From positions 2,749 to 66,748 of IMG/VR virus record IMGVR_UViG_3300035698_011651: 64,000 nucleotides of DNA; one strand, given 5' to 3'. Position 1 is the first letter of the stretch. Every line of letters starts with the position of its first letter. This stretch comes from a virus. The position numbers were made by a program, and so were the translations under genes. Under the pieces are notes generated by a model. That model did not search any database and was not told where the DNA came from. It saw nothing but the letters and a program-made list of their open reading frames with translations. Positions 20,794 through 64,000 of this stretch are shown here, in pieces.

Positions 20794-20872
20794 AGCTAGA
20801 ACATACTTGGGAAATTTTATTTACTATAGTAATAATACAGATCAAAGTTGATTTGTCAACAACTATTTTAGA

Positions 20873-20902
20873 ATAAAATGAGCCCGGCCGAAACCGGGCT
20901 CA
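20873..20902 (-). terminator. intrinsic terminator (mirror of 40351..40380)
   Basis: 10-bp stem, TTCG loop, U-tract. Confidence 0.75.
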
Positions 20903-20945
20903 CCAGGGAACGGACGCAGTGGGGGAGCACTGCGAGCGAAAGGGA

Positions 20946-21392: not shown

Positions 21393-21438
21393 AATCTCTC
21401 CTACTAAACAGAAATAATACCTAGATACTGACAGTATA

Positions 21439-21966: not shown

Positions 21967-21991
21967 CTCGACTCCTACATAGTAGAAGGTC

Positions 21992-22177
21992 TCATGTGTA
22001 TTGCCCCTTTAACATCTCTATAATCTTATTTTTCCACTTATTCAGTTTTAATGCTCTTTTCAGCAACTTCTCCGTCTCCAGACACTTGTCGCATATCGGG
22101 AGCTGTGTACCGTTCGTCGGTACTTCCACCCCGCACAGGTAGCACGCCTCCTCTGGTATCTGATTTGATGCACTCAT
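21992..22177 (-). CDS. small Zn-finger protein (mirror of 39076..39261)
   Basis: Two CxxC pairs. Confidence 0.6.
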   Translation of the reverse strand: MSASNQIPEEACYLCGVEVPTNGTQLPICDKCLETEKLLKRALKLNKWKNKIIEMLKGQYT

Positions 22178-22319
22178 TATTATTACCTTCCTTAGAGCTA
22201 TCACTAATATCCTGGCGCTTAGCATTATCTATAGCCATTAACGTGCTAAACAATAAAATGCAGCCACTAGAACATAGACAAAACACCCCAAGTATACTAC
22301 ATAACAACATAGTCCGCAT
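22038..22319 (-). CDS. putative lipoprotein (mirror of 38934..39215)
   Basis: Identical mirror ORF. Confidence 0.5.
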   Translation of the reverse strand: MRTMLLCSILGVFCLCSSGCILLFSTLMAIDNAKRQDISDSSKEGNNNECIKSDTRGGVLPVRGGSTDERYTAPDMRQVSGDGEVAEKSIKTE

Positions 22320-22327
22320 TAATACTC

Positions 22328-23371: not shown

Positions 23372-23382
23372 ACAATCTCCTG

Positions 23383-24318
23383 CTAATTGAAGTACCTCTG
23401 AAAGATACCGGTCCACGTCTCCGCAGCCGCCGTCATTCCATATTTGCATTCTTTTACATATGTACGAACACATTCTTTATGAGTTCCTGTAGCCCACCTA
23501 CCTGAACACACGAACGCCTTATCAATCGCGCCACGTATTGATTCATTTCCACAGGCAGCATCATAAAAGAATACCCCACCTGTACCAACTGAAAGTTCAC
23601 GTACCTCCGGGTTGTCCTCTGTTACTACTGGTATTCCCATATGCAGCGCCAAGGATGTTCTATTACAACTCTTATATCGAGCCTCTTCACTTGTTCGATA
23701 CAATACAAGCGCCACAGCTGCATCCATAAGACTACTCGCTAACGTATCCCAAGTCCACGATCTTATTTCTAGCTGATCTCTAAAAATAGGTCTAAGCTCG
23801 CGTTCTGCCAAATCCTGGTACTTCTTTTCAGGGTTAGTAACTATTACAACCTTATCTGCCCCCTCAAGGACACTATGTAACCCCTTAACACGTAACACAT
23901 TATAATAAGTCCCGGGCACTACAACAGTCCTGGCCGCTGGGGCTGCCAGCGGCCAGTCCATTGAATACTCATGTACATCTGGAGCTGTGTGTATTGGCTT
24001 CACTAAATGCTTACTGCGTATATAGTTACGCATAGTCTCAGTTGGTACTGTTACTACGTCTGTGTCCAAAAGCGCCTTGGTCTCCCCGGGTGTGCGCTCT
24101 TTAAAGTTGCAAGTATCTACTATGCACTTAGCTCCAGCAGCCTTTATCCTACGAATTAGCCGGCAGTCAAAAACTTTCTGAAGCAATACGGCATCATATT
24201 GTACACCCTCTTTGTACAACGAGCAGAACGATATATTCCTGATTAACGCATACGCCCTAGAGCCGGCGCTGTAAGAGTATTCAGCGCCCCGTATGCTTGG
24301 TACTATCCCTATGTGCAC
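23383..24318 (-). CDS. GT-B glycosyltransferase-like protein (mirror of 36935..37870)
   Basis: Identical mirror ORF. Confidence 0.65.
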   Translation of the reverse strand: MHIGIVPSIRGAEYSYSAGSRAYALIRNISFCSLYKEGVQYDAVLLQKVFDCRLIRRIKAAGAKCIVDTCNFKERTPGETKALLDTDVVTVPTETMRNYIRSKHLVKPIHTAPDVHEYSMDWPLAAPAARTVVVPGTYYNVLRVKGLHSVLEGADKVVIVTNPEKKYQDLAERELRPIFRDQLEIRSWTWDTLASSLMDAAVALVLYRTSEEARYKSCNRTSLALHMGIPVVTEDNPEVRELSVGTGGVFFYDAACGNESIRGAIDKAFVCSGRWATGTHKECVRTYVKECKYGMTAAAETWTGIFQRYFN

Positions 24319-24790
24319 GTTTAGTCTCCGCTGGATCATGATACTGACATACTTTGACGTGCCCCCTAAACTCCAGGCTGCTAATGTCCATTTCATCGCT
24401 TGCTGTAGACAGCTCTATCCATCCCCAATCAGAACTGGCCTTGTTGATAATAGTCTTGCCATCCTCTGATAACCTAGTAAGGATAGGCTTCTCAAAACAT
24501 AACGGACCGATACCTTTACGGTACGCCTTCTCAGCCACAAGCACCGATGTTAAACGTGACTCCTTAAACACAGGTATGGTTATATTATAGAACTCCCCGG
24601 AATACTTTTTAAGGTCTGTAGGCGGTCCAGCAGCGGCAGCTAGATCAGCTGTCCCGCCATGATCAGCCATCTCAACGATAGGTCCGCTAATGAACTTGTG
24701 TATACGCTTGCCAAAAATCAACCCAAAGCTGCAGCCAAACACAAACACACAAAACAATATACCATAACGTAGTGACATACTATTAGACAT
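24281..24790 (-). CDS. LptC-like membrane-anchored protein (mirror of 36463..36972)
   Basis: Identical mirror ORF. Confidence 0.5.
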   Translation of the reverse strand: MSNSMSLRYGILFCVFVFGCSFGLIFGKRIHKFISGPIVEMADHGGTADLAAAAGPPTDLKKYSGEFYNITIPVFKESRLTSVLVAEKAYRKGIGPLCFEKPILTRLSEDGKTIINKASSDWGWIELSTASDEMDISSLEFRGHVKVCQYHDPAETKRAHRDSTKHTGR

Positions 24791-24847
24791 GAGCTCCTCC
24801 TACAATAAAAATTGTAAGAGGAGTCTCTCTACAAATCAACAACAAAA

Positions 24848-25609
24848 TTATGCTGCTTCTTGCAGCAACAATGAACGCATGCCATTCATGCCATCCATTT
24901 GACGGTTGGGGCTAAGCCTGGGGCGCTCACTACCTTCTGCACCTATAGGAGCAGACATAACTTGAGTATACGCATTATACAAGCTCCACGCATTCTGCCC
25001 TTCAAACTCCTTAAATGAAGGTTGACTATATTCTTTGTCAACCAAACCTACGTGTCCCCACGCCATCATACCGCGCCTGGCTGCTTCCATAAGAAGATGA
25101 TCCTTACGTCTGCTAGAAAGAAACATACCCTTCATAGCGTCCACAGTACCAGACACGTTACGGATATCGCCGAGCCATCGCTCAACCCCGTTATTAACAG
25201 CACTATTAACATCCAGGTTGAGTGTATGCTTCTTACTAAGCACAAACTCCCCGGTTATTACACCGTTGGAACACACCATAACAGTACCGCCCACAGCCAT
25301 CTTAATGGCGTAACGCTGCGCATTAGAGCTGCGTATCCCCAAAGCATACTTCATACCCTCTGGCTCCGGAATACCATAGCGGTCAGGAAGAGTGACGTCA
25401 AAGCCGCCAAACAGGTCCTGTCTATCATTACTTAAAGACCATACCGACCTAGCCACCTGTATATCCCTGCTACCCAAAGCACCCTCCACAGACCGTGCCA
25501 AAGTATGATGATCTACACCCTTCCATCTTGGACCAGCACTCTTCGGCCCAGTAATCTCTATGCCCTCAAGATCCTCGATTGTTAAATTACCACCACATAC
25601 ATTTATCAT
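24848..25609 (-). CDS. DUF932-family protein (mirror of 35644..36405)
   Basis: VCSNG..KKHT motif. Confidence 0.75.
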   Translation of the reverse strand: MINVCGGNLTIEDLEGIEITGPKSAGPRWKGVDHHTLARSVEGALGSRDIQVARSVWSLSNDRQDLFGGFDVTLPDRYGIPEPEGMKYALGIRSSNAQRYAIKMAVGGTVMVCSNGVITGEFVLSKKHTLNLDVNSAVNNGVERWLGDIRNVSGTVDAMKGMFLSSRRKDHLLMEAARRGMMAWGHVGLVDKEYSQPSFKEFEGQNAWSLYNAYTQVMSAPIGAEGSERPRLSPNRQMDGMNGMRSLLLQEAA

Positions 25610-26718
25610 CGCTTCTTACCACCTTTCTTTATGAAAGCATGCTCACCTTCAAGCCATTTACCAAACCACTTAAACGCTTCAATATCCTGTAAACTTACTT
25701 TAGAGTCATCTTTGTCTGTATTATAACTTATAACAAACGGCACGCCGTTACTTCCAGCCTTAAGATACAACTTCCTATCCATAGCCAATGTACATATGGA
25801 CTTGCGTACCGTAGCCATGGCCTTGCCCCCGCCATAACACACTTTACGTGACCAATAATTATTACGTATTTTACTGCGCCCGCCGCCAATCTCCCTAAGT
25901 ATTTTCAAAGTATCCTGCAAAGTTGAAACATACTGACCCTCATCCATATGATAACTAATAGTAGAATCACGCCAATGAGCTCGCAATATAAACGTTGGAA
26001 TAATCTCTGATATAGTCAGACGGACGTACTGCAGTATCGCTGCAATCTTATCGATTCTATTAGCCGAAGCAGCTTTCGACGCTGTTACAACAGCCTCCCA
26101 CCTCAACCGTTTACGGTCAGACTCCTTCTGCGCCTCCAGCTTAATGCGTTTCTTCTCTAACAAATTACTAACTTTAGTATTTAAAGACTTTGCAAGCCTG
26201 GCATTCACTAACACTAGCCCCATATCCTTTAAAGCCCTCGGGGGCCTAAACGTAATATCCTTAGCAACAGAAGCCGAACACTCCCAATCAGCTATCCACC
26301 CGTTCACACCAGATAAATGTTTATACATATCCCTAGTGATATTTACCTTACCAAGCTGGCGTACGGTATTTAACAGCGCATCATACTCCGCTTCCGGCTC
26401 AGTACCACCGCCGACAAATGTAGGAAGCTTCGACACTAAAATACAGTTTATCCTGCTATTATACTTACGCCCCTCGTGGCGCGTGTAACCATGCGGTATG
26501 TAAGTACAGTAGTCAGGGGCTGAGTACCTAGCTTCCAGCTCGCCTAAAATATCCTCATGTGTATCCCCTATCATCACCTCATTATCAATATTAGAGATCT
26601 CTTCCATACTGTTAGTCATCTTCCATGCTTCACGGTATGTAGTCCTAACCCATTTATCCCACTTATCGGGTTCTTCCTGTATATCTATACGCACAGCGCC
26701 TTTACAAAAATTGTCCAT
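25606..26718 (-). CDS. hypothetical protein (mirror of 34535..35647)
   Basis: Identical mirror ORF. Confidence 0.75.
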   Translation of the reverse strand: MDNFCKGAVRIDIQEEPDKWDKWVRTTYREAWKMTNSMEEISNIDNEVMIGDTHEDILGELEARYSAPDYCTYIPHGYTRHEGRKYNSRINCILVSKLPTFVGGGTEPEAEYDALLNTVRQLGKVNITRDMYKHLSGVNGWIADWECSASVAKDITFRPPRALKDMGLVLVNARLAKSLNTKVSNLLEKKRIKLEAQKESDRKRLRWEAVVTASKAASANRIDKIAAILQYVRLTISEIIPTFILRAHWRDSTISYHMDEGQYVSTLQDTLKILREIGGGRSKIRNNYWSRKVCYGGGKAMATVRKSICTLAMDRKLYLKAGSNGVPFVISYNTDKDDSKVSLQDIEAFKWFGKWLEGEHAFIKKGGKKR

Positions 26719-26729
26719 CAATCCTCCAT

Positions 26730-26756
26730 AAAAATAGGCGCCCCGAAGGGCGCCTA
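26730..26756 (-). terminator. intrinsic terminator (mirror of 34497..34523)
   Basis: 9-bp stem, TTCG loop, U-tract. Confidence 0.8.
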
Positions 26757-26777
26757 ATTATTCCATTTACTCCAACA

Positions 26778-27554
26778 CTACTTCTTAGGCGCTGGAAGAT
26801 ACTTCTTATTCGGCTTAGGCAGTGGACGATACTGCACCTCCTGCAGCGACTCCATAAGACCCTGACTGCATTCACTCTGGGACATTATCTTGGCAGAAAG
26901 GCTTCCACGCAACCTGCGCTCATACGCACCAAGATTTTGTTTACGGCGACGCAATTCCCGTATGCCCTTCTCCAAATCGGTACGCTCCTTAGCTACAGCG
27001 ATTACAGCCTGCTGCGCTTTACGGATGGCATCGCTAGGATTAACTGTACAGACGATTTCAGTCCGTGAATGATAACCATTTTCACCAAATGCTATCTTAA
27101 ACCTAAATACGTCATCGAACGTAACATCGGAAGGCTTAAACTGCGGAATCTCCATACTTTTTAGCTTGATAGTATCCACTCCCTTAATTCTGTACAGCTG
27201 AGCTGCAATACGCTTGGCGTCCTTAACTGCAGCGACGGCTTTCTTGTTGACAACCTTCTTCTGGAAAGAAGCGATAGTGGATTCCACAGTCTTCTTTACC
27301 TTAGCCGCAGCCTCGTCACAGGATTCCAGTGCCCTATCATATTCTCCGAGAGACTCCTCAAGCTGGCCCTCAAGAGCAGAAACCAGAACGTTAATACCAT
27401 GTTCGCCCAGCCGTTCACTCTGTTCCACTGCAAGCTCTGCAGTAACTATAGAGGCGTTAGCCTTAACAAGACCTCGTTCCTCAATAATACCTTCAACAAC
27501 ACTGTCAGCTAGCTTATCTTTGGCCTTCGCACTTACTGCTTCTTTATTACTCAT
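26778..27554 (-). CDS. coiled-coil protein (mirror of 33699..34475)
   Basis: Identical mirror ORF. Confidence 0.75.
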   Translation of the reverse strand: MSNKEAVSAKAKDKLADSVVEGIIEERGLVKANASIVTAELAVEQSERLGEHGINVLVSALEGQLEESLGEYDRALESCDEAAAKVKKTVESTIASFQKKVVNKKAVAAVKDAKRIAAQLYRIKGVDTIKLKSMEIPQFKPSDVTFDDVFRFKIAFGENGYHSRTEIVCTVNPSDAIRKAQQAVIAVAKERTDLEKGIRELRRRKQNLGAYERRLRGSLSAKIMSQSECSQGLMESLQEVQYRPLPKPNKKYLPAPKK

Positions 27555-28110
27555 TGATCATTTCTCCTCTGAGACTTACACACCGTATTCCAAGCTCACG
27601 GTTGAGAACCTCGTCGATTCCGGTGGATACCGCCCCCACGGGCGATGTAGTTCCACATTTCTTACAAAATACTTCAGATACTGCTTTCACCCAACTACGC
27701 ATTAACTTGCCAGTAGACCTATCTACCATCCAGATAGCCTCTCCCATCTCAGTGGAGAAACCTTCTTTACTGACAATAAACACTTTGCCGTCTGTTGGCT
27801 CTATGGCAAAGCACCGAGGACATATAAGACTGCCCTTATGGACTATAATGGTGCTGATAGTCTCCGTTCCCCTACAAACTTGCAAATTCACCCCCGCAGA
27901 CTGCTTCGCTATACCAAAGGTGAGCGCAGCATACAAACACTGCCTACCCGCAAGCTCGGCCGCGCACGGAGTAGAAAAGTCATAATGGTCTGGGAATGGG
28001 GCACCATTGTCCATCTCGCCGACACTGCCTGCAAGATAGTCCATGGTTTGTGGCACTCTACCGAGAAGCTCATCGATAGTAAACGGCTGCATCTTAAAAT
28101 AGAACGACAT
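27547..28110 (-). CDS. Zn-binding hypothetical protein (mirror of 33143..33706)
   Basis: Identical mirror ORF. Confidence 0.7.
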   Translation of the reverse strand: MSFYFKMQPFTIDELLGRVPQTMDYLAGSVGEMDNGAPFPDHYDFSTPCAAELAGRQCLYAALTFGIAKQSAGVNLQVCRGTETISTIIVHKGSLICPRCFAIEPTDGKVFIVSKEGFSTEMGEAIWMVDRSTGKLMRSWVKAVSEVFCKKCGTTSPVGAVSTGIDEVLNRELGIRCVSLRGEMINE

Positions 28111-28136
28111 TGGCTCCTCCAATGCTGCCTATATCA

Positions 28137-28283
28137 CTAGTCAGTGTCTATTCGTTCACTCTCTAATGAAATATTTCCACACTCGGAACAACGCAGCCAG
28201 GTATACATCTTATTCCCCTCCGTGGCCTTGTGTAATTCTTGCTGGTTGTCTTCTTCACGACAACACTCGTTGTCAATAATCAC
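28137..28283 (-). CDS. 48-aa Zn-ribbon-like protein (mirror of 32970..33116)
   Basis: Mirror of a manually translated ORF. Confidence 0.5.
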   Translation of the reverse strand: MIIDNECCREEDNQQELHKATEGNKMYTWLRCSECGNISLESERIDTD

Positions 28284-28768
28284 AGAATCATCTCCTCTAC
28301 ATAGTCGTCGTCACACGTCTTTTTATGACATTTACCAAAATCGTAATCAGCATCATAGACTTTCCATGGGCCATAATCCAGTAACTCCCCTGCACATTCT
28401 ACTAATAAATGGCCGTTATCACTAAATCTATGTGGAAGCTTTGATCCCTCTACGCTATATACCGCACATAAACTCACCTCACATAGCATAAGCCTTAACG
28501 GCTTCCCTATGGATGTTATAACTGACAACATCCTGCCGTCACTGCCCGCAAGAAAACAAGCCCTACGCCCACAGCCAAGCATCCGCTCAGCTCTGGTACG
28601 GTGAGCTGGGAGTAACTCAATACATAGGTGTTTATCACGTAAACCTTCAAGCATTAGCCTTAAAATCTCCACATGGCGTACTGCTTTATCATTCTCAAGC
28701 ATTAAATGCATGATAATCAAAAGCAGTACGCACAGGAACAACGGTGATATGGCCTCGACTATGCTCAA
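28280..28768 (-). CDS. membrane-anchored hypothetical protein (mirror of 32485..32973)
   Basis: Identical mirror ORF. Confidence 0.65.
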   Translation of the reverse strand: MSIVEAISPLFLCVLLLIIMHLMLENDKAVRHVEILRLMLEGLRDKHLCIELLPAHRTRAERMLGCGRRACFLAGSDGRMLSVITSIGKPLRLMLCEVSLCAVYSVEGSKLPHRFSDNGHLLVECAGELLDYGPWKVYDADYDFGKCHKKTCDDDYVEEMIL

Positions 28769-28771
28769 GAG

Positions 28772-29608
28772 CTATCCTTTACTCTTCTTGCCTTTGAGAG
28801 CCTTCTCTGCCTTATCAATTTTCCCCTCGGCTGCCTTCAACTCTTTTAGCAGTACATCGATAACCTTAGCATTCTCTGCTGCCAACTCAAGCGCTTCTTT
28901 TACCGCACTCTTATGCAAAACAATGCCTTCATTATCACACTTTTGAAGAAGCTTTATGCCGATAGTAGCCATGCCGATAGACTCAGAGTAATCCTTTGTC
29001 TTGGCCATAAACAACTGCAAGCCCTTAGCTGGGTCCTCTGCTTGCTTATCCCTAGCTTTACGCTTTGCACTGCGCGTACTCTTGGCCCTCTTGGTAAGGA
29101 ACCCTGGCTTCTGCGTGGATTCCTCTTCAATAGCAGTAATTAATCCAGCCACAGTAAGCTTCTCTGACACCACCCTGTTGGCCATGTCTTTGCGGTCCTC
29201 GTTACTACGCACAGCCACAAGCCTAACAATATGAGACAGCGTTAGACCTCGATTAATTAGCTTTCCGAACTCGCCTTTGGTCCAGGCCCGAACAATGAGT
29301 AAAGTGTTATAGATATAGGTGACATTAGTATTGCAGTCCCCAGCAAAACGCTTTATATTACGTTCATCATTCTGATCCGCAAACAGCCTCTTAGCATATA
29401 AACCTACGTCATACAACTTAGGTAATGCCTCCTTGTTGGCTTTATCAGAGATAGCCATATACTCACGCATTACTAATCGCGCGCCTTCTACACAGGCTTT
29501 GTACTCCTTCTCATCCATATTCTTAGGAACAAGAAGCTTACTTCCTCCGGCCGTCGTCGTGGCTGCAGCCGCTTGACGTACCAGATTATCATTTTCTTTT
29601 TCCATCAT
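28772..29608 (-). CDS. helical DNA-binding-like protein (mirror of 31645..32481)
   Basis: Identical mirror ORF. Confidence 0.6.
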   Translation of the reverse strand: MMEKENDNLVRQAAAATTTAGGSKLLVPKNMDEKEYKACVEGARLVMREYMAISDKANKEALPKLYDVGLYAKRLFADQNDERNIKRFAGDCNTNVTYIYNTLLIVRAWTKGEFGKLINRGLTLSHIVRLVAVRSNEDRKDMANRVVSEKLTVAGLITAIEEESTQKPGFLTKRAKSTRSAKRKARDKQAEDPAKGLQLFMAKTKDYSESIGMATIGIKLLQKCDNEGIVLHKSAVKEALELAAENAKVIDVLLKELKAAEGKIDKAEKALKGKKSKG

Positions 29609-30541
29609 TTACCTCCCTATATTAATACAATCTTTTACGGACAGCATCCCATTCAGCTGATCCTGTATAATCACTGTTTCATTGATAATACTTTCACACT
29701 GCTCCAGCAAATCTCCAATCTCAGATACTGGTAATTGCCCGCTTGTAGCCTTCTTAACCGCGTACAGCTTAGACCTCACACCGTCAATCATGACGTTATA
29801 AGAACTAGGTATCAACGAAGGCCGTGGGTTATCAATAGCTTCCTTGGACTCCTCATCCAAAGGCTTCATCGGGAAAGCATAACTACCTGAACATACCTTC
29901 AGTTTGTCAGGAGTGGAGGGCTTAGACATCTCAGCTTCAAAGCTACTGGCGTTATCAACCATTTTATCTTCATGCCACCCCAAGCCTCGGTTCAGATCCT
30001 CCCAGGCAATCTCCTTCTCAGAACTGGAATAATTTATTTTATACCAATTCCTGACATACAGCTGATATTGCGCCCTGATCAAAGGATCACACTTGGATAA
30101 CGGTATATGATGTATGACCGTACTCTCCCTGTGCTGATAGTCCATCGTGGCAAACACCCAATACGTGTGTAATGTCTTACCACAGAAAGTCCTGCCCTCA
30201 TCCCTTTCAGACACCAACGCCAGAGCATCAATACATCTGGAATGGTCCTGCGGAGTCCAGCAACCTGATAGCAGCTTATCGACTTGGCCACACACTGACA
30301 AACCAAATACGTATCGTTGCTCCCTTGCCGTGGCAAAATCAGCTAATACTTTACTGGGCTTACCACCGGTAGTAGCAATCATCTGTGACACTTCGGATAT
30401 CTTAAGGTTATCCCAGTTTAACCTGAGCTGATCAACACACCGCTTAACATCCAACTCATAGAACGTAGCTACAGCCGTCTGCGACGTCCAGGTTGGCGGT
30501 ACCCACCTGTATTTCCTCTGTTTAATTAGCTCATTCGCCAT
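29609..30541 (-). CDS. axis-proximal hypothetical protein (mirror of 30712..31644)
   Basis: Identical mirror ORF. Confidence 0.7.
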   Translation of the reverse strand: MANELIKQRKYRWVPPTWTSQTAVATFYELDVKRCVDQLRLNWDNLKISEVSQMIATTGGKPSKVLADFATAREQRYVFGLSVCGQVDKLLSGCWTPQDHSRCIDALALVSERDEGRTFCGKTLHTYWVFATMDYQHRESTVIHHIPLSKCDPLIRAQYQLYVRNWYKINYSSSEKEIAWEDLNRGLGWHEDKMVDNASSFEAEMSKPSTPDKLKVCSGSYAFPMKPLDEESKEAIDNPRPSLIPSSYNVMIDGVRSKLYAVKKATSGQLPVSEIGDLLEQCESIINETVIIQDQLNGMLSVKDCINIGR

Positions 30542-30607
30542 CAGGTATTTCCCCCCTGAACCGTCTACACTTAAACCTATTATAAATGGGCCTAAGAGTA
30601 TCAACAA

Positions 30608-30645
30608 GCTCCTGTCGCTCTTTAATATTAAAGAGCGACAGGAGC
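30608..30645. other. Palindrome axis, candidate hairpin telomere tip
   Basis: gctcctgtcgctcTTTAAT|ATTAAAgagcgacaggagc: AT-rich core, zero spacer, intergenic, just upstream of a promoter. Confidence 0.5.
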
Positions 30646-53114: not shown

Positions 53115-54971
53115 ATGCAGTGTGACACCAATGAAGTGTATAACACTTCCAAAATAACAGGTATGGGTTACATCAACCAAGCTGGTAAGGGATACTTCCC
53201 GGATCCTTGGTGCGATTATGCATCGCTGGAGATGCCGCGGACGCTGCGTAATGTGTTGCAGTGGTGTGAGCATATCTGGCTTAATAACGGCACCTTTAGA
53301 ACAGCTTGCGAGCGTACAGTCAGGTACTTCTTAACTCAAATTGAGATTAAGGATGTATCGGATCAAGAGGCTAAGAAGTGGAGAGAGTACCTTAATGAGT
53401 CAGTTAATGTTATTGATCTGCTGGCTAACTTGGGTGACGACTTCATGTGTTATGGAAATGTCTTCAGCAGCCTCTATGTACCATTCGATCGGTTCTTGAT
53501 ATGTAAGAAGTGCGGTCTTGAACGGCCAATCCAGAAGGTTGACTATACGTTTGGTAAGAATTATCAGTTTACAGGTACCTGCCCTAAGTGTAAGCATAAG
53601 GGTATCTTTGAACGCCGCGATCGCAGGGCTGCAGAAGATGAGACCCTACGCATTATAAGGTGGGATCCCCACTCTATAATCATTCAGTATAACCCTCTAT
53701 CCCATGACGTAGAGTATAGGTGGCGTATTCCTGAGAGCTTCAAGAGGGAGATAAGGGACGGCAATCCGTTCTACCTTAGAACAACCCATTGGGAGTTCAT
53801 AGAGGCGGTCAGGGATGATAAATTGTTCAGGTTTAATGACAAGATGTTTCATCATTTTAAGGAAGAGACTTTATCCGGTATAAGGGTAATGGGGTGGGGT
53901 ATACCAAGGCTGGTAAGTAATTTCAAGCAGGCTTATTATATCCAGGTGTTGAAGAGATATAATGAGGCTTTGGCTCTTGACTATATTGTACCATTCAGGG
54001 TATTAACACCGTCTGCTGGCAGTAGTCGTGAAGCTGACCCCATTCTGCATCAGAATCTTGGGGCGTATAATAGTAAGGTTATGAACATGGTGGCAGAGCA
54101 CAGGAAAGATCCTGCAACATGGCATTTCCTTCCATTCCCTATAAATTACAGCTCTCTTGGAGGTGAAGGAGCCACTATGGTTCCCTCTGAGATGATTAAC
54201 AACGCTCTTGATGAGATGTTGAACGCCCAGGGTGTCCCTATAGATTTCTATAAAGGGACTATGACCTTACAAGCTGCCCCTACAGCTCTTAGGTTATTTC
54301 AACAGACGTGGCCTCAGCTAATATCTGGGTTTAATGGCTGGCTTACCTGGTTTGTACAGCAAACTGCTCGTATCAAGAATTGGGAGCCGCCGCGTGTACA
54401 GTTGCAGCCAGTCACTCTTGCTGATGATCTTGAGAAGAAGAATATTCTCATGCAGCTGGCTGCCGGCAATCAGATTAGTAAGCAGACAGCCTACGCCCCA
54501 CTCGGCATTGATGTTGCCGAGGAGACTAGGCGAATCTTTGACGAGCAGAAGGAAACTTCCGAACTTGAACGTGATGCACAGAGAGAGATGTCTGAACAGC
54601 AACAAATGGAAGAGCGTATCGCCACTATGGAGCGGGGTGCAGCGGGCGCTATGCCGCCTGGCGGCGCAGGTATGCCTATGGGGGGTGGAATGCCTATGGG
54701 TGACCCAGCAATGGGCGGAGCGCCTATGGGTGGAGCGCCTATGGGTGGGGGTGGAGGTAACAATACTCCGCAAGATATGCTTGTACAGGCTGAACAGATT
54801 GCTAACCAGTTGCTACAAATGCCATATGAGCAGCGTAAGAGTCAGATGCTGCAATTGAAGAAGTCTAATGAGGCGCTACATGCCTTGGTTAAATCAAAGA
54901 TGGAATCAATTAGGCAGCAGGCTCAGTCGATTGGTGGATATCAGATATTACAGGGGGGATCCCCAGGTTAG
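53115..54971 (+). CDS. putative portal protein with Zn-ribbon insertion
   Basis: Size and layout typical of portals (DFMCYGNVF, GWGIPRL, GVP.DF, helical C-terminus); CKKC..CPKC insertion; start of the structural-like block. Confidence 0.55.
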   Translation: MQCDTNEVYNTSKITGMGYINQAGKGYFPDPWCDYASLEMPRTLRNVLQWCEHIWLNNGTFRTACERTVRYFLTQIEIKDVSDQEAKKWREYLNESVNVIDLLANLGDDFMCYGNVFSSLYVPFDRFLICKKCGLERPIQKVDYTFGKNYQFTGTCPKCKHKGIFERRDRRAAEDETLRIIRWDPHSIIIQYNPLSHDVEYRWRIPESFKREIRDGNPFYLRTTHWEFIEAVRDDKLFRFNDKMFHHFKEETLSGIRVMGWGIPRLVSNFKQAYYIQVLKRYNEALALDYIVPFRVLTPSAGSSREADPILHQNLGAYNSKVMNMVAEHRKDPATWHFLPFPINYSSLGGEGATMVPSEMINNALDEMLNAQGVPIDFYKGTMTLQAAPTALRLFQQTWPQLISGFNGWLTWFVQQTARIKNWEPPRVQLQPVTLADDLEKKNILMQLAAGNQISKQTAYAPLGIDVAEETRRIFDEQKETSELERDAQREMSEQQQMEERIATMERGAAGAMPPGGAGMPMGGGMPMGDPAMGGAPMGGAPMGGGGGNNTPQDMLVQAEQIANQLLQMPYEQRKSQMLQLKKSNEALHALVKSKMESIRQQAQSIGGYQILQGGSPG

Positions 54972-56817: not shown

Positions 56818-58125
56818 ATGCCAGAGATAAAATCATTTTTAGTTCATGATCGTAGTAAAGCGCCGGGTAACAAATACGCCGGCCGGAGGAGAAAGGATAA
56901 ACCAATGCCAGAAGAACAGAAACCTGTAGCACAGCCGGTATCACAAGAGCCACCTGCAGCGCCAGTTGTAGAAGTTCCTGCTGAGCCAGAGGTACTGGAT
57001 CTACTTGATGTGTCTGATGTTCCGTTACCACCGCAAGAGGTGAAAGAGAAAGTGGAGGATGAAATAGGTAAACCAGTTGCCTTTAATTGGGCTATACTTG
57101 GTTCTGGGCAGGGCGGCGGAAGGCTTGCCCACCAGTTCTGGAATATGGGTTATCGGCGCGTCGTGGCTGTTAATACAGCGCAGACAGATATAAAGCCCTT
57201 GCAGCTGCCTGAAGAGAACAAGTTAATAATAGGTACGTCCGGAGCTGGCGGTAAGCTGGAAGACGGATTTAAGGCTGCGAAGCAGCATCATGAAGATATA
57301 CATGATATCATGCGCAGAAAGTTTGGCACTGATTTTGATCGAATCCTCATAACTGCCACGGCTGGTGGCGGTACAGGGTCTGGTAGTGCTGCAGAGCTGG
57401 TTGATATCTGCGGCGAGTTTATGGATAAACTGGAACTGAGGAAGCACGGCGGCGACCCTAAGGTTGGAGTTATACTGGCTTTACCGAAGGAATCTGACGG
57501 TAAGCATGCGCATTACAATGCATTTAATACGTTCACTAAACTGTATTCTATGCTTCCAGATAAGATCAGCCCACTCATTGTAATAGATAACCAGCGTATC
57601 AGTAAACTGTACCCTGATTTAAGTGTGGAAGAGTTTTGGACCCGTTCAAATCAGACCATTTGTTCAATCTTCCATCTTATCAATGTTGTGTCAGCTAGGC
57701 ACTCTGAGTACACTTCGTTTGATAAAGCCGATCTTGAGACTATTCTTCAGTCTGGTTTACTGGTCTTCGGCGCAACACCTATGGCAAAGTGGGACGCCCG
57801 GGAAGACATGGGCGTAGCCATAAGAGATAATCTTAAAAGGAACGTGCTGGTAGGTGGTCTTGATCTTTCTAGTGGGTCGGTTGCTGGCTGTGTCCTTGTA
57901 GCTAATAAGGACGTTTTGAGGAGTGTAAAGCAGGATGCGCTGGACGATGGTTTCTCTATGTTAGGTAGAATGCTAAGTTCTGGCAGCGCCGTGCATAGAG
58001 GGATATACGCAGGTAATAACCCGCGCCCTGTAGTATACACAATGATTGGCGGGCTTGCCGCCCCCGTTGAACGCTTGCGGGTACTGCAGCGTATTGGCGG
58101 TATCGCCGATTGGGATGACGCATAA
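56818..58125 (+). CDS. Tubulin/FtsZ-superfamily GTPase (PhuZ/TubZ/CetZ-like)
   Basis: T1 GSGQGGGRLA, AVNTA..D, GAGG, T4 AGGGTGSG, LP..D, IDN, T7-like FDKADL. Confidence 0.9.
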   Translation: MPEIKSFLVHDRSKAPGNKYAGRRRKDKPMPEEQKPVAQPVSQEPPAAPVVEVPAEPEVLDLLDVSDVPLPPQEVKEKVEDEIGKPVAFNWAILGSGQGGGRLAHQFWNMGYRRVVAVNTAQTDIKPLQLPEENKLIIGTSGAGGKLEDGFKAAKQHHEDIHDIMRRKFGTDFDRILITATAGGGTGSGSAAELVDICGEFMDKLELRKHGGDPKVGVILALPKESDGKHAHYNAFNTFTKLYSMLPDKISPLIVIDNQRISKLYPDLSVEEFWTRSNQTICSIFHLINVVSARHSEYTSFDKADLETILQSGLLVFGATPMAKWDAREDMGVAIRDNLKRNVLVGGLDLSSGSVAGCVLVANKDVLRSVKQDALDDGFSMLGRMLSSGSAVHRGIYAGNNPRPVVYTMIGGLAAPVERLRVLQRIGGIADWDDA

Positions 58126-60616: not shown

Positions 60617-60990
60617 TGGATAGACGAGATGCATTCCGGGTTGGATATTACACAAAGGTTGCCGAGCTTGGGCACACTCCAGCGACATTCCGCAAGTTAG
60701 CAGAGGGTGGTATTGCTGCTGAGGCATTACGTGGTGTCAAGAGTTTGGGTTCGTATGGGCTGTTATTGGGCTTAGGTGTTCCCATGCTTGGCGGTATATA
60801 CACTGGTAAGGCGCATTCTATGATGAATGATGTAACGCCTACGGATGTTGAGGCAATGAAGCGTAATGAGCTTATCTCTGAGTACAAGAGGCAGGCTAAG
60901 CGTATTACGCAGCGTAGTGAGCAACGCAATTGGCGTAAGTTGTTTAAACGTAAGCAGGAAGCCCAGAAGGAGGAGGATCTTTATGCATGA
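60613..60990 (+). CDS. Gly-rich putative virion protein
   Basis: AGGAG RBS; KVAELG and RKLA motifs. Confidence 0.7.
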   Translation: MMDRRDAFRVGYYTKVAELGHTPATFRKLAEGGIAAEALRGVKSLGSYGLLLGLGVPMLGGIYTGKAHSMMNDVTPTDVEAMKRNELISEYKRQAKRITQRSEQRNWRKLFKRKQEAQKEEDLYA

Positions 60991-61342
60991 GCAAGAAGAG
61001 GGAGTTCTTGGTCAACAGGTATTTCCAGGTATTGATGGTATTCCTTATAGGACACGTAATGGTGTACCGAATCTGAAGCATGACGATCCGGAGAAGAAGA
61101 AGCCGGTTACAGTAGTGGATATGCATGTCGATCAGTTAGATATGTCTATCTCTGATGATGCGAAGAAGTTACAACATATTTTGAATCTTTGTTCCCGGAG
61201 TAAAGGTTACGTATCTAAACAGCTCGAGACTTATGATCCTGGTATTAAGAGCTGGCGGGTACTATTAGTCTGGGGCGAGTTCTTTCTTGAAGACCCAGCG
61301 GAGGCACAAGACGATGCCGGACATAGAAGAATCTACCACTAA
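60983..61342 (+). CDS. hypothetical protein
   Basis: GGAGGAGG RBS before ATG 60983. Confidence 0.7.
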   Translation: MHEQEEGVLGQQVFPGIDGIPYRTRNGVPNLKHDDPEKKKPVTVVDMHVDQLDMSISDDAKKLQHILNLCSRSKGYVSKQLETYDPGIKSWRVLLVWGEFFLEDPAEAQDDAGHRRIYH

Positions 61343-62621
61343 TCCTGGATGGGATCAGGCGAAGGCTCAAGCGCTTCGTCTTGCTTTAGCTGGTGTAGCT
61401 TTTGGTGGTGGCGCCAGTATGTTTAAGGAGCTCATGCGTAGGATAAACCGACTACAGGCCGGGTCTGCATTCATGGGTGCTCCGGACAACACCGTTAAGC
61501 TCACCCTCCCTAATACTAGGAGTCGGTATAAGCGTGCTGCTGACGAGGCTAAGGCTAGTGACGCCGCGGCTATTGCTCCAGCTAAGACTACACCGGCGGT
61601 GCCTGTACCTCAGTCTAGTGTGGGTCATTTCCTTGAGTCTTCACCGTGGGCACTGCCCATGTTGTTAGGTGGGGGCAGTCTTGGGGCTTATGGCGGGTAT
61701 AAGGGTATGGAGTGGGTTATGTCTCAGTTGCGTGAGCGTGAGAACAAGCAGGAGCTTGCTTCTGCGCAGGCTGAGTTTGAGCGCGCTCTTCAGTCCAGTC
61801 ATTTGAAGAGGGGTTCTTTTGATCCTGACACTCTTTATGATGAGTTTGAGAAGTGTGCTGATTGGGCTGACTGGATTAAGTCAAAGGTCAGGTGGCGGGG
61901 TATGCCATCTCTTGCTAGTCCTTCTGTAGCTGCTGGCGGTGCTTTAGCTGGTGGCGGTCTTATTTGGCTGCTTACGCACATGATGGCTAAGAATTACTTT
62001 GGTAGTAAGGATCCGGAGAGGGCTAAGATTGAGGCGCTCAAGAAGCTACGGCAGCTTAGGAATGCTCAGCGGCTCGCTCCTATACCATTTGAGATGCCTG
62101 GCGAGGAGTTAGCTGAGTTGGAGGCGGAGGGCGCTACACCGCTTGAGATGCCTGGCGAGGAGTTAGCTGAGTTGGAGGCGGAGGGCGCTACACCGCCCCC
62201 TTTCACGCAGCCCCCCTTGAGTAAGGATGGGGGTTGGCTAGATGATATAAAGGGCCAGGGCATGAAAGCGTATCAGAAGGTCACAGGTACTAACCCTAAC
62301 ACCATGATACGGGACAAGTTACAAGCGGGCGTACAGAATCTCGATTCAAGTAAGCTTGTTGATTCCATAGTTAATCAGTCCCAGCCTGCTGCTTCTACAT
62401 TTGATGAGGGTGTAGCTGGCGGTGTGAGTACTGGTATTGGTCAGCACATGCAGCAGAACCCTAGTAGCACTTGGCAGAACTTTAGTTCTCCGGTTGCTCC
62501 TGCTATTATGAGTAGTTTACTTGGTTACCAGAAGGGTGGTATGAGTGGTGCGATGGAGGGTGGTGCGCAGGGTTTCCAGGGTGCTGGTGGTTTTGGCGCT
62601 CTTATGGGGGGCATGAAATGA
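61314..62621 (+). CDS. Gly/Ala-rich putative virion protein
   Basis: GGAGG RBS; several Gly-rich hydrophobic helices separated by KRAA, EKCA and KDG motifs. Confidence 0.75.
   Translation: MPDIEESTTNPGWDQAKAQALRLALAGVAFGGGASMFKELMRRINRLQAGSAFMGAPDNTVKLTLPNTRSRYKRAADEAKASDAAAIAPAKTTPAVPVPQSSVGHFLESSPWALPMLLGGGSLGAYGGYKGMEWVMSQLRERENKQELASAQAEFERALQSSHLKRGSFDPDTLYDEFEKCADWADWIKSKVRWRGMPSLASPSVAAGGALAGGGLIWLLTHMMAKNYFGSKDPERAKIEALKKLRQLRNAQRLAPIPFEMPGEELAELEAEGATPLEMPGEELAELEAEGATPPPFTQPPLSKDGGWLDDIKGQGMKAYQKVTGTNPNTMIRDKLQAGVQNLDSSKLVDSIVNQSQPAASTFDEGVAGGVSTGIGQHMQQNPSSTWQNFSSPVAPAIMSSLLGYQKGGMSGAMEGGAQGFQGAGGFGALMGGMK
62089..62196 (+). repeat. 54-bp perfect tandem duplication
   Basis: EMPGEELAELEAEGATP x2. 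Confidence 0.9.
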
Positions 62622-63199
62622 CTGCTCAGTTAGACGGTTCTACTCCCACGACTACTCCGCCTAAAAGTACTGGTATGTTTGACATGGATCCTACTATTAG
62701 GACCAGCGTTACTCAGGCTGCTAATGATGTATCTGGTGATCGTAACTTTGGCAAGCAGTTGGGTGAGCAGCTTACTACTAAGCTCAAGAGTGAGGGAGCT
62801 GATTTACAGGGTCGTTTAGCTGGTCTTATTAATAAGCGTATGAGTGATTGGACCACTAGTATGCCTAATTGGGCGCAGCCACTTGCTTCTACGATGTTTA
62901 AGGCAGGCACTGCTTGGGACAAGGATCCTAATTTTGGCCAGCAGATAGGTCAGACTATTGCCAAGCCTGGTTCTCCTTTTGCTGAGGGCGTATCTGGGGA
63001 GTTATCTTCTCTTATTACTCCGGAGAACCTTTCTGGGGTGATTAATAAGACTCAGTTCACTGGTCCCGCCAAGTCTATGCTTAATTTCATGGGTACTGGG
63101 AATCTAAGTGGCAAGGGCGGTCTTATGTCTGATATCTTTGGTAAGGATTACTGGGGCGCTATTACGGGGGAACAAGATGCAACTAAACCCACAGCTTAA
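62618..63199 (+). CDS. hypothetical protein
   Basis: ATGA overlap. Confidence 0.7.
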   Translation: MTAQLDGSTPTTTPPKSTGMFDMDPTIRTSVTQAANDVSGDRNFGKQLGEQLTTKLKSEGADLQGRLAGLINKRMSDWTTSMPNWAQPLASTMFKAGTAWDKDPNFGQQIGQTIAKPGSPFAEGVSGELSSLITPENLSGVINKTQFTGPAKSMLNFMGTGNLSGKGGLMSDIFGKDYWGAITGEQDATKPTA

Positions 63200-64000
63200 A
63201 CAGCCGGTAACATTCCGTAAGTTCAATGACCCAACTAAGATGCGGCAGATGATCTTTGATAATGTATTGGCATCTACTAAGGCCAGGTACCCTATGGAGA
63301 ACGAAAGGTACCGCCTGGAGCTCACAGACGTCCGTTACGACAAGCCTAAAGACTTTAGTCTCAAGGACCAGAAGTTGGCGTTGCTTTCAAGGAGAAGCCT
63401 GTACTGGCGACTACAGGGTACCTGGAAGCTCGTTGATAAGGCTACTGATGAAACAGTGGATAGTCGTAAGGCCACGGTAGCTAACGTACCATATATGACT
63501 CAGCGTGGTACATTCATCAATAAGGGGTCTGAGTACACTGTTGCTAACCAGATGAGGTTACGGCCGGGTGTATATGCCAGGAAGAAAGACAACGGGGACT
63601 TAGAGGCGCACTTCAATATCATGCCAGGGAGTGGTCGTTCATTCAGAATACACATGGATCCAGAGACCGGAGTGTTCAAAATGGGGGTAGGAAACGCTCA
63701 TCTCCCCTTGTACCCGATTCTTAAGGGAATTGGTTTATCTGACAATGACTTACAAGATTATTGGGGTAAGGATTTGCTCAATGCAAATAGGCAAAAGGTG
63801 GACAATTCCGCTATGGGTAATGCTTATAAGAAGTTTGTTGGTGGGACTGACACAGAGGGAGTGGCGCAGGTGAAGGCGCTGCAGGAGGCATTTAGTAAGA
63901 TGGGATTGGATCCAGACGTTGTTGATAGGTCCCTGGGTGGGTTTATTAAACCGGCTGTTGTACCTCCTGTTAGTGGGGGTGGGGCTCTTCCTACGCAGCC
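63177..64000 (+). CDS. rpoB: multi-subunit RNA polymerase beta-like subunit, N-terminal part (truncated by window edge)
   Basis: Manual translation, open to the end: MQLNPQ...VANVPYMTQRGTFINKGSEYTVANQMRLRPGVY matches RpoB region PxMTxxGTFxING.E...Q..RSPGV. Confidence 0.85.
   Translation, partial: MQLNPQLKQPVTFRKFNDPTKMRQMIFDNVLASTKARYPMENERYRLELTDVRYDKPKDFSLKDQKLALLSRRSLYWRLQGTWKLVDKATDETVDSRKATVANVPYMTQRGTFINKGSEYTVANQMRLRPGVYARKKDNGDLEAHFNIMPGSGRSFRIHMDPETGVFKMGVGNAHLPLYPILKGIGLSDNDLQDYWGKDLLNANRQKVDNSAMGNAYKKFVGGTDTEGVAQVKALQEAFSKMGLDPDVVDRSLGGFIKPAVVPPVSGGGALPTQ

What the first reader, a model, noticed from the sequence alone, without database searches (positions are those of the whole stretch)
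63177..64000. Unannotated RNA polymerase beta-like subunit at the window edge
Seen: an ORF absent from the supplied track, overlapping the upstream gene, with VPYMTQRGTFINKGSEYTVANQMRLRPGVY. After about 255 aa it turns low-complexity, suggesting an insertion or a split subunit. Established: this is a conserved RpoB N-terminal region, and a deep-branching clade of Caudovirales multi-subunit RNAPs (mReC) is known from metagenomes. Inference: the genome belongs to or near that clade, and its position among virion-like genes suggests a packaged RNAP.
Basis: partly seen in the sequence, partly recalled or inferred. Interest (0 to 1): 0.7.

Follow-up and report, generated by a model that had tools for sequence, protein, structure and literature searches.

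The report
Truncated phage RNA polymerase large-subunit gene
The open frame at the window's edge is the first 274 codons of a phage's own multisubunit RNA polymerase gene, cut off by the end of a mis-assembled (mirror-image) contig; it belongs to a large, already catalogued but biochemically unstudied family.

Summary
An ATG at 63177 opens a frame that runs off the window. Its first 255 residues are a bacterial-type RpoB N-terminal (beta1/beta2) module: PDB phmmer E 1.3e-11, NCBIfam rpoB E 5.8e-13, and all 50 listed fold matches are RNAP beta chains.

It is viral, not cellular. The best relatives (47-57% identity) are 1,425-3,350-aa phage proteins that fuse beta to the N-terminal half of beta-prime, with NADFDGD in the same chain. 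A separate ~620-aa beta-prime C-terminal protein lies a few kb downstream. Cultured members are Salmonella phage Arash gp206 and Vibrio phage D69.

The low-complexity tail is real. A second metagenome contig continues it as a P-x-Q repeat. It starts at an insertion hot spot where relatives carry peptidase C39, SET, 2H or HAD-like domains. An insertion is therefore more likely than a split subunit.

The gene cannot be completed here. The 66,748-nt contig is a perfect palindrome with only 33,374 unique bases, and it ends inside the repeat.

Virion packaging rests on Arash proteomics alone. mReC membership could not be tested. Verdict: a new member of a known kind, of moderate interest.

The parts
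63177..63941 (+). Codons 1-255 of the phage RNAP large-subunit gene. This is the conserved beta1/beta2 (protrusion/lobe) module of a bacterial-type beta subunit.
   Evidence: PDB phmmer: 49 of 49 matched sequences are RNAP beta subunits, best E 1.3e-11, query 58-197 against chain 54-198. NCBIfam NF001616 rpoB E 5.8e-13, query 13-213 against profile 26-228 of 1096. AF2 mean pLDDT 85.8. Foldseek: all 50 listed hits are bacterial RNAP beta chains, including the isolated Mtb B1-B2 domains 4kbj, at E about 1e-12, but with TM only 0.30-0.37. 47-57% identical to phage beta-beta'N fusion proteins.
63942..64000 (+). Codons 256-274 plus 2 nt: the start of a Pro/Gly/Gln-rich linker at the lobe insertion hot spot, cut by the contig end.
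   Evidence: Only this frame is open. pLDDT is below 50. L009 continues it for 18 more codons as a P-x-Q repeat with a 9-nt period. Relatives have inserts at the same profile position: 160-165 aa in P0075, P0077, P0080, P0081 and P0083, 11 aa in P0001. P0104 has a Peptidase_C39 domain right after the homologous LGGF motif.
62618..63199 (+). Upstream ORF of 193 aa, family unknown. It overlaps the RNAP start by 23 nt.
   Evidence: No Pfam or PHROG hit.
60866..62621 (+). Two ORFs (60866-61342, 158 aa; 61287-62621, 444 aa) whose homologues sit just upstream of the RNAP gene in relatives.
   Evidence: tblastn: the 158-aa ORF hits L003, L005 and L006 within 1.5 kb upstream of their RNAP genes (33-41% identity). 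The 444-aa ORF hits L003 9417-9893. No family hit.
53115..54971 (+). Portal protein gene, 8.2 kb upstream on the same strand.
   Evidence: 46% identical to G002, 31% to Vibrio phage D69 and 25% to Arash gp204, which is annotated as portal. Weak match to phrog_64 portal, E 4.8e-4.
56818..58125 (+). Tubulin/FtsZ-family GTPase gene lying between the portal and RNAP genes (context only).
   Evidence: Pfam PF00091 E 1.2e-15. PDB FtsZ 1e-9 and RepX 7.8e-9. 41% identical to a G002 gene.
1..30626 (.). Mirror copy of 30627-61252. It carries no independent sequence.
   Evidence: the repeat finder reports arms 1-30626 and 30627-61252, 100% complementary with 0 nt between them. The whole 66,748-nt record equals its own reverse complement.

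Best explanation
The frame 63177-64000 is the 5' end of the gene for the large catalytic subunit of a phage-encoded, bacterial-type multisubunit RNA polymerase.

Shown:
- Residues 1-255 are the beta1/beta2 (protrusion/lobe) module of an RpoB-like protein.
- The closest relatives are single polypeptides that continue through the beta fork and the beta double-psi barrel (Rpb2_3, Rpb2_6). They run straight into the N-terminal half of beta-prime (Rpb1_1, Rpb1_2) with the NADFDGD metal-binding loop.
- Each of 5 relatives' genomes has one such gene plus one separate ~620-aa beta-prime C-terminal gene (Rpb1_5) 5-7 kb downstream.

Inferred for this genome: the same two-polypeptide enzyme, with the rest of the gene and the beta-prime C gene lying beyond the contig end.

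Shown: at residue 255 the chain leaves the conserved fold and enters a flexible P-x-Q linker, at a profile position where relatives hold inserts.

Inferred: the linker leads into an inserted segment or domain in the lobe, a surface that tolerates lineage-specific insertions, and the chain then returns to the conserved LLRA..DDRDSL segment.

Inferred from one relative only: the enzyme is packed into the capsid and delivered with the DNA, so early genes are transcribed without the host polymerase, possibly directed by a phage sigma factor.

The gene is incomplete only because the assembly stops inside the repeat. The contig itself is a foldback artefact.
For: Identity of the module:
- 49 of 49 PDB matches are RNAP beta, best E 1.3e-11.
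- rpoB HMMs at 5.8e-13 and 7.8e-9, colinear at the N-terminus.
- pLDDT 85.8, and all 50 listed fold hits are RNAP beta.

Viral family:
- 595 representatives at E<=1e-30, 1,084 at <=1e-10 and 1,243 at <=0.001.
- 93 of 102 hits carry both PF00562 and PF00623.
- domain order Rpb2_3, Rpb2_6, Rpb1_1, Rpb1_2 in L003, L005 and Arash gp206. Arash gp216 carries Rpb1_5.
- NADFDGD lies in the same chain in 4 of 4 IMG/VR relatives.
- 5 of 5 relatives have exactly one Rpb2_6 gene and one Rpb1_5 gene of about 615-628 codons.
- tree of 103 N-terminal rows. The window falls inside the 89-row phage group, split from 14 bacterial rpoB rows with SH-aLRT 100. Its nearest row is P0001.

Phage context: portal, tubulin and conserved upstream neighbours.

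Tail and hot spot.

The locus continues in nature: a Logan contig of 8,908 nt in run X1 covers L009 694-2581 and reaches 7,020 nt past its end.

Packaging: in the passages read of PMC10585845, Arash gp206 had the most spectra of the proteins found in purified particles (3,516). gp216 had 1,210, and sigma factor gp10 was also detected.
Against: - Nothing beyond residue 292 was seen for this genome. The fusion to beta-prime, the catalytic motifs and the second subunit are all extrapolated from relatives at no more than 57% identity.
- Pfam gives no RNAP hit on the fragment.
- Foldseek TM-scores are low (0.30-0.37) with rmsd 13-20 A.
- 9 of 102 hits lack the beta-prime domain and are 493-985 aa. 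Shorter or split forms may therefore exist.
- Packaging: the Arash study counted 116 proteins as virion-associated, including ribonucleotide reductases. Its authors say abundant infection proteins may simply co-purify.
- Portal-RNAP adjacency is not conserved.
- A Sigma70_r2 domain was found in only 1 of 5 relatives, and none was found among the 40 window ORFs scanned with Pfam.
Confidence: 0.8

Rival explanations
1. Same enzyme, but not a virion protein. It would be made after infection as a middle/late polymerase, with early genes read by the host RNAP.
For: The Arash authors themselves allow that abundant enzymes co-purify with particles. 116 proteins, including ribonucleotide reductases and RNA ligases, were counted as virion-associated. 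In the complete relative G002 the RNAP gene (about 40 kb) lies far from the portal gene (about 163 kb).
Against: gp206 had the highest spectral count of the proteins found in the Arash particles, above the major capsid protein (3,516 against 1,333), and gp216 was also high. Only one RNAP gene set exists per genome in 5 of 5 relatives. A phage that brings its own polymerase for all classes would need it at entry, or else host-read early promoters.
Confidence: 0.3
2. Split subunit. The gene would end soon after the linker, giving a free ~300-aa beta N-terminal protein, with the rest of beta encoded separately as in phiKZ-type polymerases.
For: Short family members exist: P0068, P0078 and P0084 (493-495 aa), P0085 (633), P0026 (645) and P0045 (678). 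Many library representatives of 236-450 aa stop near this point.
Against: The 493-678-aa forms run on through the conserved segment up to DDRD. In the profile alignment they stop near position 460 or later, not at 259. The very short ones are probably contig-end fragments like this one, which could not be checked. The frame is still open 37 residues into the linker in L009. The nearest relatives in the tree (P0001, P0004, P0005, P0014, P0022, P0074) are all full fusions of 1,457-1,623 aa. P0104 and the P0075 group show in-frame inserts at this very site.
Confidence: 0.1
3. Cellular rpoB fragment: host DNA, contamination, or a recently captured host gene.
For: The only structural and curated-HMM matches are to bacterial RpoB.
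Against: Identity to bacterial RpoB is about 18-22% in the structural alignments, against 47-57% to phage proteins. The tree splits 14 bacterial rpoB rows from the phage group with SH-aLRT 100. The neighbours are a portal gene and phage-only ORFs, not rplL/rpoC. Relatives lie on 163-201-kb viral contigs.
Confidence: 0.01
4. The tail, or the whole end of the contig, is an assembly artefact, so the low-complexity turn means nothing.
For: The contig is demonstrably mis-assembled as a perfect palindrome. It ends in a short-period repeat.
Against: An independent metagenome contig (L009) has the same sequence and extends it in frame. Contigs from 4 runs of 4 coded studies laid on L009 with at most 2 differing letters and no gaps or joints. 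One of them bridges the repeat by 7 kb.
Confidence: 0.03

Closest known systems
Salmonella phage Arash gp206 plus gp216 ('Arashvirus', OQ632216.1; PMC10585845)
   Same: The N-terminal module aligns over 95% of the fragment. gp206 is a beta-beta'N fusion of 1,525 aa and gp216 is a beta' C-terminal protein of 606 aa. A homologous portal gene lies upstream on the same strand. Arash is the only relative with experimental data, namely virion mass spectrometry.
   Different: Identity is only 30%. Arash has no insert at the lobe hot spot and no tubulin gene. Its portal and RNAP genes are separated by one small ORF, against 8 kb and ten ORFs here. Arash came from hospital sewage on Salmonella. The holders of this sequence are labelled salt-lake metagenomes.
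Uncultivated 160-200-kb phages with beta-beta'N RNAP (IMG/VR loci L003-L006, especially G002, 200,903 nt with direct terminal repeats)
   Same: 47-52% identity in the module. G002 also shares the portal (46%), the tubulin (41%) and 6 other proteins, 9 of 42 window ORFs in all. There is one RNAP set per genome.
   Different: Gene order differs: in G002 the portal is more than 100 kb from the RNAP gene. Insert content at the hot spot differs: none in L004, SET + 2H in L003, HAD-like + 2H in L005, a Cys/His-rich segment (likely zinc-binding, not tested) in L006.
mReC, the multisubunit-RNAP-encoding Caudovirales (Weinheimer & Aylward 2020, PMC7481178)
   Same: Metagenomic tailed phages, some over 200 kb, encode beta and beta' homologues close enough to cellular ones to be found with COG0085/COG0086 HMMs. 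They carry the NADxDGD motif and form a clade apart from cells (sections 6, 7 and 12 read).
   Different: The paper sections I read do not mention a beta-beta' fusion and require each subunit to be at least 800 aa. Its 8 detected capsid proteins were all PF07068. PF07068 was found in 0 of 5 relatives here, with a silent control. The Arash capsid protein (307 aa) hits only PF05065, and weakly. No mReC sequences could be compared.
phiKZ/AR9-type jumbo-phage RNAPs (Chimalliviridae and relatives)
   Same: A phage-encoded multisubunit RNAP, with one form packaged in the virion. Tubulin genes occur in the same genomes (passages read in PMC7824862).
   Different: In that group beta and beta' are each split into two or three polypeptides, and two paralogous enzyme sets exist. 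Here beta is fused to beta'N and there is one set. No phiKZ-like phage was among the 7 records hit in 50,697 phage genomes. Sequence similarity to bacterial RpoB is direct.
Bacterial RpoB
   Same: The beta1/beta2 fold and colinear N-terminal motifs are shared. Lineage-specific insertions in the lobe are a known habit of bacterial beta subunits (recalled, not from a call).
   Different: Structural identity is 18-22%. The lobe is much shorter. In relatives the chain is fused to beta'N. The genes have a phage context and form a separate clade.

Membership tests
RpoB-type beta subunit, N-terminal beta1/beta2 module | Significant, colinear sequence match to RpoB N-termini | tested here: met
   PDB phmmer E 1.3e-11, query 58-197 against chain 54-198. 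NF001616 E 5.8e-13 and TIGR02013 E 7.8e-9. Scores lie far below the full-length cut-offs, as expected for a 274-aa piece.
RpoB-type beta subunit, N-terminal beta1/beta2 module | Pfam RNA_pol_Rpb2 domain hit | tested here: not met
   No RNAP family at E<=1. The only hit is DUF2780 at E 0.069. Pfam's N-terminal Rpb2 models do not reach this divergent module. Full-length relatives hit Rpb2_3 and Rpb2_6.
RpoB-type beta subunit, N-terminal beta1/beta2 module | Predicted fold matches solved beta1-beta2 domains | tested here: met
   All 50 listed Foldseek hits are RNAP beta chains, probability 1.00, E down to 1.3e-12, including 4kbj (Mtb B1-B2). TM is only 0.30-0.37.
Phage beta-beta'N fused RNAP large subunit (Arash gp206-like) | N-terminal module groups with the family rather than with cellular RpoB | tested here: met
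   47-57% identity. The window falls inside the 89-row phage group, which is split from 14 bacterial rows at SH-aLRT 100. The outgroup comes from one bacterial phylum only.
Phage beta-beta'N fused RNAP large subunit (Arash gp206-like) | Rpb2_6 and Rpb1_1/Rpb1_2 with NADFDGD in one polypeptide | not testable with these tools
   The contig ends at codon 274 and L009 adds only 18 codons. The feature is present in 4 of 4 IMG/VR relatives and in 93 of 102 hits by Pfam.
Phage beta-beta'N fused RNAP large subunit (Arash gp206-like) | Separate beta' C-terminal (Rpb1_5) gene nearby | not testable with these tools
   tblastn with Arash gp216 and the L004 616-aa protein found nothing in the window. It is present in 5 of 5 relatives, 5-7 kb downstream of the RNAP gene. 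Here that position lies off the contig.
mReC (PMC7481178) | RNAP clusters with the published mReC sequences | not testable with these tools
   The sequence and contig lists are in supplementary datasets, which are closed. No mReC sequence was available.
mReC (PMC7481178) | Major capsid protein of family PF07068 and TerL of family PF03237 (as reported for the mReC contigs where these were detected) | tested here: inconclusive
   The window has no capsid or terminase gene among the 40 ORFs scanned with Pfam. Relatives: PF07068 in 0 of 5 with a silent control, PF03237 in 1 of 5. The Arash MCP hits only PF05065, weakly, at E 0.0036.
phiKZ-type split RNAP | Beta and beta' each split into several polypeptides, and two paralogous sets (virion and non-virion) | tested here: not met
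   Relatives fuse beta to beta'N and have a single Rpb2_6 gene in 5 of 5. No phiKZ-like record is among the 7 tblastn hits. Not testable in the window itself.
Cellular rpoB operon | rplL-rpoB-rpoC synteny and placement within Bacteria | tested here: not met
   The upstream genes are phage ORFs, a portal gene and a tubulin gene. The tree keeps the window apart from bacterial rpoB.

The most novel reading that the evidence does not exclude
The P-x-Q linker leads into an accessory enzyme domain built into the lobe of a capsid-packaged polymerase. Relatives carry peptidase C39 (shown at this site), SET, 2H-phosphoesterase and HAD-like domains in this N-terminal region, and some carry a GNAT acetyltransferase whose position was not mapped. 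The injected RNAP would then double as a host-modifying effector.

Together with the phage tubulin next door, this salt-lake phage would belong to a lineage that evolved a host-independent, spatially organised infection programme. That would be separate from the nucleus-forming Chimalliviridae, using a fused rather than a split polymerase.
Probability: 0.15. Interest if true: 0.7.

Novelty: new member of a known kind. Interest (0 to 1): 0.4.

Why it matters
Phage-encoded multisubunit RNA polymerases serve as evolutionary markers and as models for minimal transcription machines. This beta-beta'N fusion type is very common in metagenomes: 595 clusters at 50% identity score E<=1e-30. In the papers I searched, its only experimental record is one virion proteome.

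The window adds a member from a saline habitat. More usefully, it points to a family-wide hot spot in the lobe where unrelated enzyme domains are grafted onto the polymerase. The searches (listings only) turned up no description of that hot spot.

The practical lesson is that the record is a foldback assembly. Half of the window is a mirror image, the 'inverted terminal repeats' label is an artefact, and any feature in 1-30626 duplicates one in 30627-61252.

Tried and rejected
- **Pfam on the fragment:** no RNAP hit. PHROGs gave only phrog_24349, of unknown function.
- **Extending the gene:** the exact 48-nt end was absent from viral contigs. The metagenome scan gave only L009, which adds 54 nt.
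- **Looking for the genome's own full-length protein:** a search with P0106 residues 1-260 listed 120 of 180 hits. None was more than 57% identical to the window.
- **Split forms:** Whether the 493-985-aa hits are truly split is therefore open.
- **mReC test:** the PF07068 search was silent in the controls too.
- **ESM Atlas on the 594-aa ORF after the portal gene:** best score 0.82, uninformative.
- **tRNA scan of 30627-64000:** none found.
- **Expression:** no RNA holder listed.
- **Literature:** searches for a description of the fusion architecture or of the accessory-domain inserts gave nothing pertinent (listings only; passages read).
- **Considered and rejected:** a hairpin-telomere origin for the palindrome. 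An open frame (30586-31644) runs through the centre. This argues against a true end but does not exclude one.
Full report
**What is in the sequence**

One search lists a + strand frame 63108..63998 that is still open at the window's end. Its 24th codon is the ATG at 63177, which follows a GGGGGA run. It overlaps the upstream ORF 62618..63199 by 23 nt. Of the three forward frames, only this one is open over the last 140 nt.

**The contig**

The window is the reverse strand of bases 1-64000 of a 66,748-nt virus record. The last 1,001 bases of the window match both ends of that record at 100%. The repeat finder reports one inverted repeat, 1-30626 against 30627-61252, 100% complementary with no spacer. 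A script confirmed that the whole record equals its own reverse complement.

So only 33,374 bases (window 30627-64000) are unique. The 'inverted terminal repeats' label is the foldback itself. Window base 64000 is a true contig end, so the gene cannot be extended within the genome held.

An ORF (30586-31644) runs through the palindrome centre. That speaks for an assembly or amplification foldback rather than a natural hairpin end, but does not prove it.

**Is it RpoB-like?**

Pfam gave no RNAP hit, and PHROGs gave only an unnamed 1,191-position family. Three other tests were positive:
- phmmer against PDB chains returned 49 sequences at E<=10. All are named RNA polymerase beta subunit or RpoB. 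The best is E 1.3e-11, with query 58-197 on chain residues 54-198.
- NCBIfam's rpoB models hit at 5.8e-13 and 7.8e-9, again colinearly at the N-terminus.
- An AlphaFold2 model built on a 31-row alignment reached mean pLDDT 85.8, with residues 257-274 below 50. All 50 listed Foldseek matches were bacterial RNAP beta chains, including the isolated beta1-beta2 domains of M. tuberculosis. TM-scores were low (0.30-0.37), as expected for a two-lobed fragment compared with 1,100-residue chains.

The observation and the 'RpoB N-terminus' reading are therefore confirmed.

**It is a phage gene of a large family**

tblastn against 50,697 phage records hit 7:
- Vibrio phages D69, D181 and D148 (34%).
- Salmonella phage Arash (30%).
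- Three small unannotated records.

IMG/VR gave four loci at 47-52% identity on contigs of 163-201 kb. The exhaustive search of 1.84 billion representatives found 1,243 proteins at E<=0.001, 1,084 at <=1e-10 and 595 at <=1e-30. Lengths ran up to 3,350 aa.

Full-length relatives have the domain order Rpb2_3, Rpb2_6, Rpb1_1, Rpb1_2 in one chain. 93 of 102 hits carry both PF00562 and PF00623. NADFDGD lies near the C-terminus of the same polypeptide in 4 of 4 IMG/VR relatives. My regular expression missed Arash and D69, and I did not pursue that.

Arash gp216 (606 aa) carries Rpb1_5. Each of 5 relatives' records has exactly one Rpb2_6 gene and one ~615-628-codon Rpb1_5 gene 5-7 kb downstream. The enzyme is thus a two-polypeptide core, beta-beta'N plus beta'C, in a single set per genome. 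The very long members owe their length to inteins and homing endonucleases.

**Tree**

I aligned the first 260-340 residues of the window protein, 101 of the 102 hits, Arash, D69, one MAG-borne relative and 14 bacterial rpoB genes.
- P0012 was left out for its 532-residue N-terminal extension.
- The 14 bacterial genes came from the phylum of genome G005.
- 16 near-duplicates were dropped before tree building, leaving 103 rows.

The bacterial rows and the 89 phage rows are separated by a branch with SH-aLRT 100. The window sits in a 7-row group (support 88, not starred) with P0001, P0004, P0005, P0014, P0022 and P0074, all full fusions of 1,457-1,623 aa.

The outgroup is one phylum. No archaeal, eukaryotic, phiKZ-type or mReC sequences were available. 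The tree therefore rejects 'nested in Bacteria' only within that limit, and says nothing about deep branching.

**The low-complexity turn**

A profile of 48 compact members (1,450-1,492 aa) aligns the window to model positions 6-259, ending at residue 255 (...DRSLGG). An independent metagenome contig, L009 (2,581 nt), is 99.92% identical over 2,527 nt. It continues the frame for 54 nt as PVQPVQPIKPMQPLQPVQ, with a 9-nt period. Both contigs stop in this repeat, which explains the assembly break.

In the family, hmmalign places inserts of at least 150 residues at model positions 236, 258 or 283 in 23 of the 102 hits. Some of those placed at 283 begin after the DDRDS motif, so the exact site varies.
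- At position 258, the window's own site, P0075, P0077, P0080, P0081 and P0083 have 160-165 extra residues, and the closest full-length relative P0001 has 11.
- P0104 (55% identical) follows the homologous ...NLGGF with a Peptidase_C39 domain, E 8.1e-11.
- Other members carry SET, 2H-phosphoesterase, HAD-like (LNS2) and GNAT domains.

An insertion at a tolerated surface of the lobe is therefore the best reading. The 493-678-aa family members run on through the conserved segment up to DDRD. In the profile alignment the 493-495-aa ones stop near model position 460, so they do not support a split at residue 255.

Contigs of four runs labelled salt-lake metagenome were laid on L009 with at most two differing letters. 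In run X1 an 8,908-nt contig covers L009 694-2581 and goes on for 7,020 nt beyond it. The remainder of the gene exists in public data, but no tool here can fetch it.

**Context**

All ORFs of the unique half lie on the + strand.
- 53115-54971 is the portal gene: 46% to G002, 31% to D69, 25% to Arash gp204.
- 56818-58125 is a tubulin/FtsZ-family GTPase, shared with G002 only. A PF00091 match appeared in 1 of 5 relatives.
- The two ORFs at 60866-62621 have homologues just upstream of the RNAP gene in L003, L005 and L006.
- Further upstream lie a radical SAM/SPASM protein, a family-9 glycosyltransferase, methyltransferases, a DEDD exonuclease and RuvC.

The portal gene directly precedes the RNAP gene in Arash and D69. 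It is not within 10 kb in L003-L006 and is over 100 kb away in G002. Gene position is therefore weak evidence for packaging.

**Packaging**

The evidence is a single paper, PMC10585845, of which I read passages. In sucrose-gradient-purified Arash particles, gp206 gave the most spectra (3,516). gp216 gave 1,210, and the sigma factor gp10 was also found. However, 116 proteins were counted, among them ribonucleotide reductases, and the authors allow co-purification. I rate packaging at about even odds for this genome.

**mReC**

I read the abstract and sections 6, 7, 8, 12 and 13 of PMC7481178. mReC contigs were found with COG0085/COG0086 HMMs. Each subunit had to be at least 800 aa and carry NADxDGD. 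The 8 detected capsid proteins were all PF07068, and all 17 TerL proteins with a Pfam hit (of 31 detected) matched PF03237. These sections do not mention a fusion.

Here PF07068 was found in 0 of 5 relatives, in a search whose controls were also silent. PF03237 was found in 1 of 5. The 307-aa Arash capsid protein hits only PF05065, below its cut-off. The mReC sequence lists are in supplements that I could not open. Membership is open. The family fits the general description but not the capsid marker.

**Verdict**

This is a real, truncated gene for the large subunit of a phage multisubunit RNAP of the beta-beta'N fusion type. It carries a linker at the family's lobe insertion hot spot and sits on a foldback contig. 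It is a new member of a known, catalogued kind. The family-wide grafting of enzyme domains onto the polymerase, and the neighbouring tubulin, are the points worth following.

Noticed in passing
window 1-61252 (centre 30626/30627): The whole 66,748-nt record is a perfect palindrome. Window 1-30626 mirrors 30627-61252, so only 33,374 nt are unique. The ORF 30586-31644 and its mirror 29609-30667 run through the centre.
   Followed up: partly
window 56818-58125: A tubulin/FtsZ-family GTPase (PF00091 E 1.2e-15) lies between the portal and RNAP genes. Its nearest solved relatives are FtsZ and TubZ/RepX-type proteins. A PF00091 match was found in only 1 of 5 related genomes.
   Followed up: partly
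window about 62089-62196 (L009 616-723): An exact 54-nt tandem duplication inside ORF 61287-62621 repeats an 18-residue PGEELAELEAEGATP-containing unit (read). Logan contigs of run X1 break there.
   Followed up: no
window 59855-62621: A run of Gly/Ala-rich ORFs upstream of the RNAP gene has no family hit, apart from ORF 60613-60990 there, which is not Gly/Ala-rich. Some have homologues next to the RNAP gene in relatives.
   Followed up: partly
window 37780-38925, 42106-44726: A radical SAM/SPASM protein, a family-9 glycosyltransferase and two methyltransferase-domain proteins cluster together. This may be a modification module.
   Followed up: no
G002 63078-63949 (L013 3060-3949): The homologue of the Arash major capsid protein lies in two reading frames in the complete relative G002. 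This is a frameshift or a sequencing error.
   Followed up: no
family-wide (P0105, P0185, P0242 and others): RNAP large subunits of 2,200-3,350 aa contain one or more inteins with LAGLIDADG homing endonucleases. Other members carry GNAT, SET, 2H, HAD-like and peptidase C39 domains.
   Followed up: partly
L022/L024 (G005 contig C2, 59,676 nt): A relative (46% identity, 1,478-codon open frame) lies on a contig binned into a MAG titled Methylococcales, which also has its own normal rpoB. It is probably a phage contig in the bin, and at best a weak host hint for that relative.
   Followed up: no
L009 laid with runs X1-X4: The sequence recurs, nearly identical, in runs labelled salt-lake metagenome from 2017-2019. 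Three runs hold at least half of the sampled words.
   Followed up: partly
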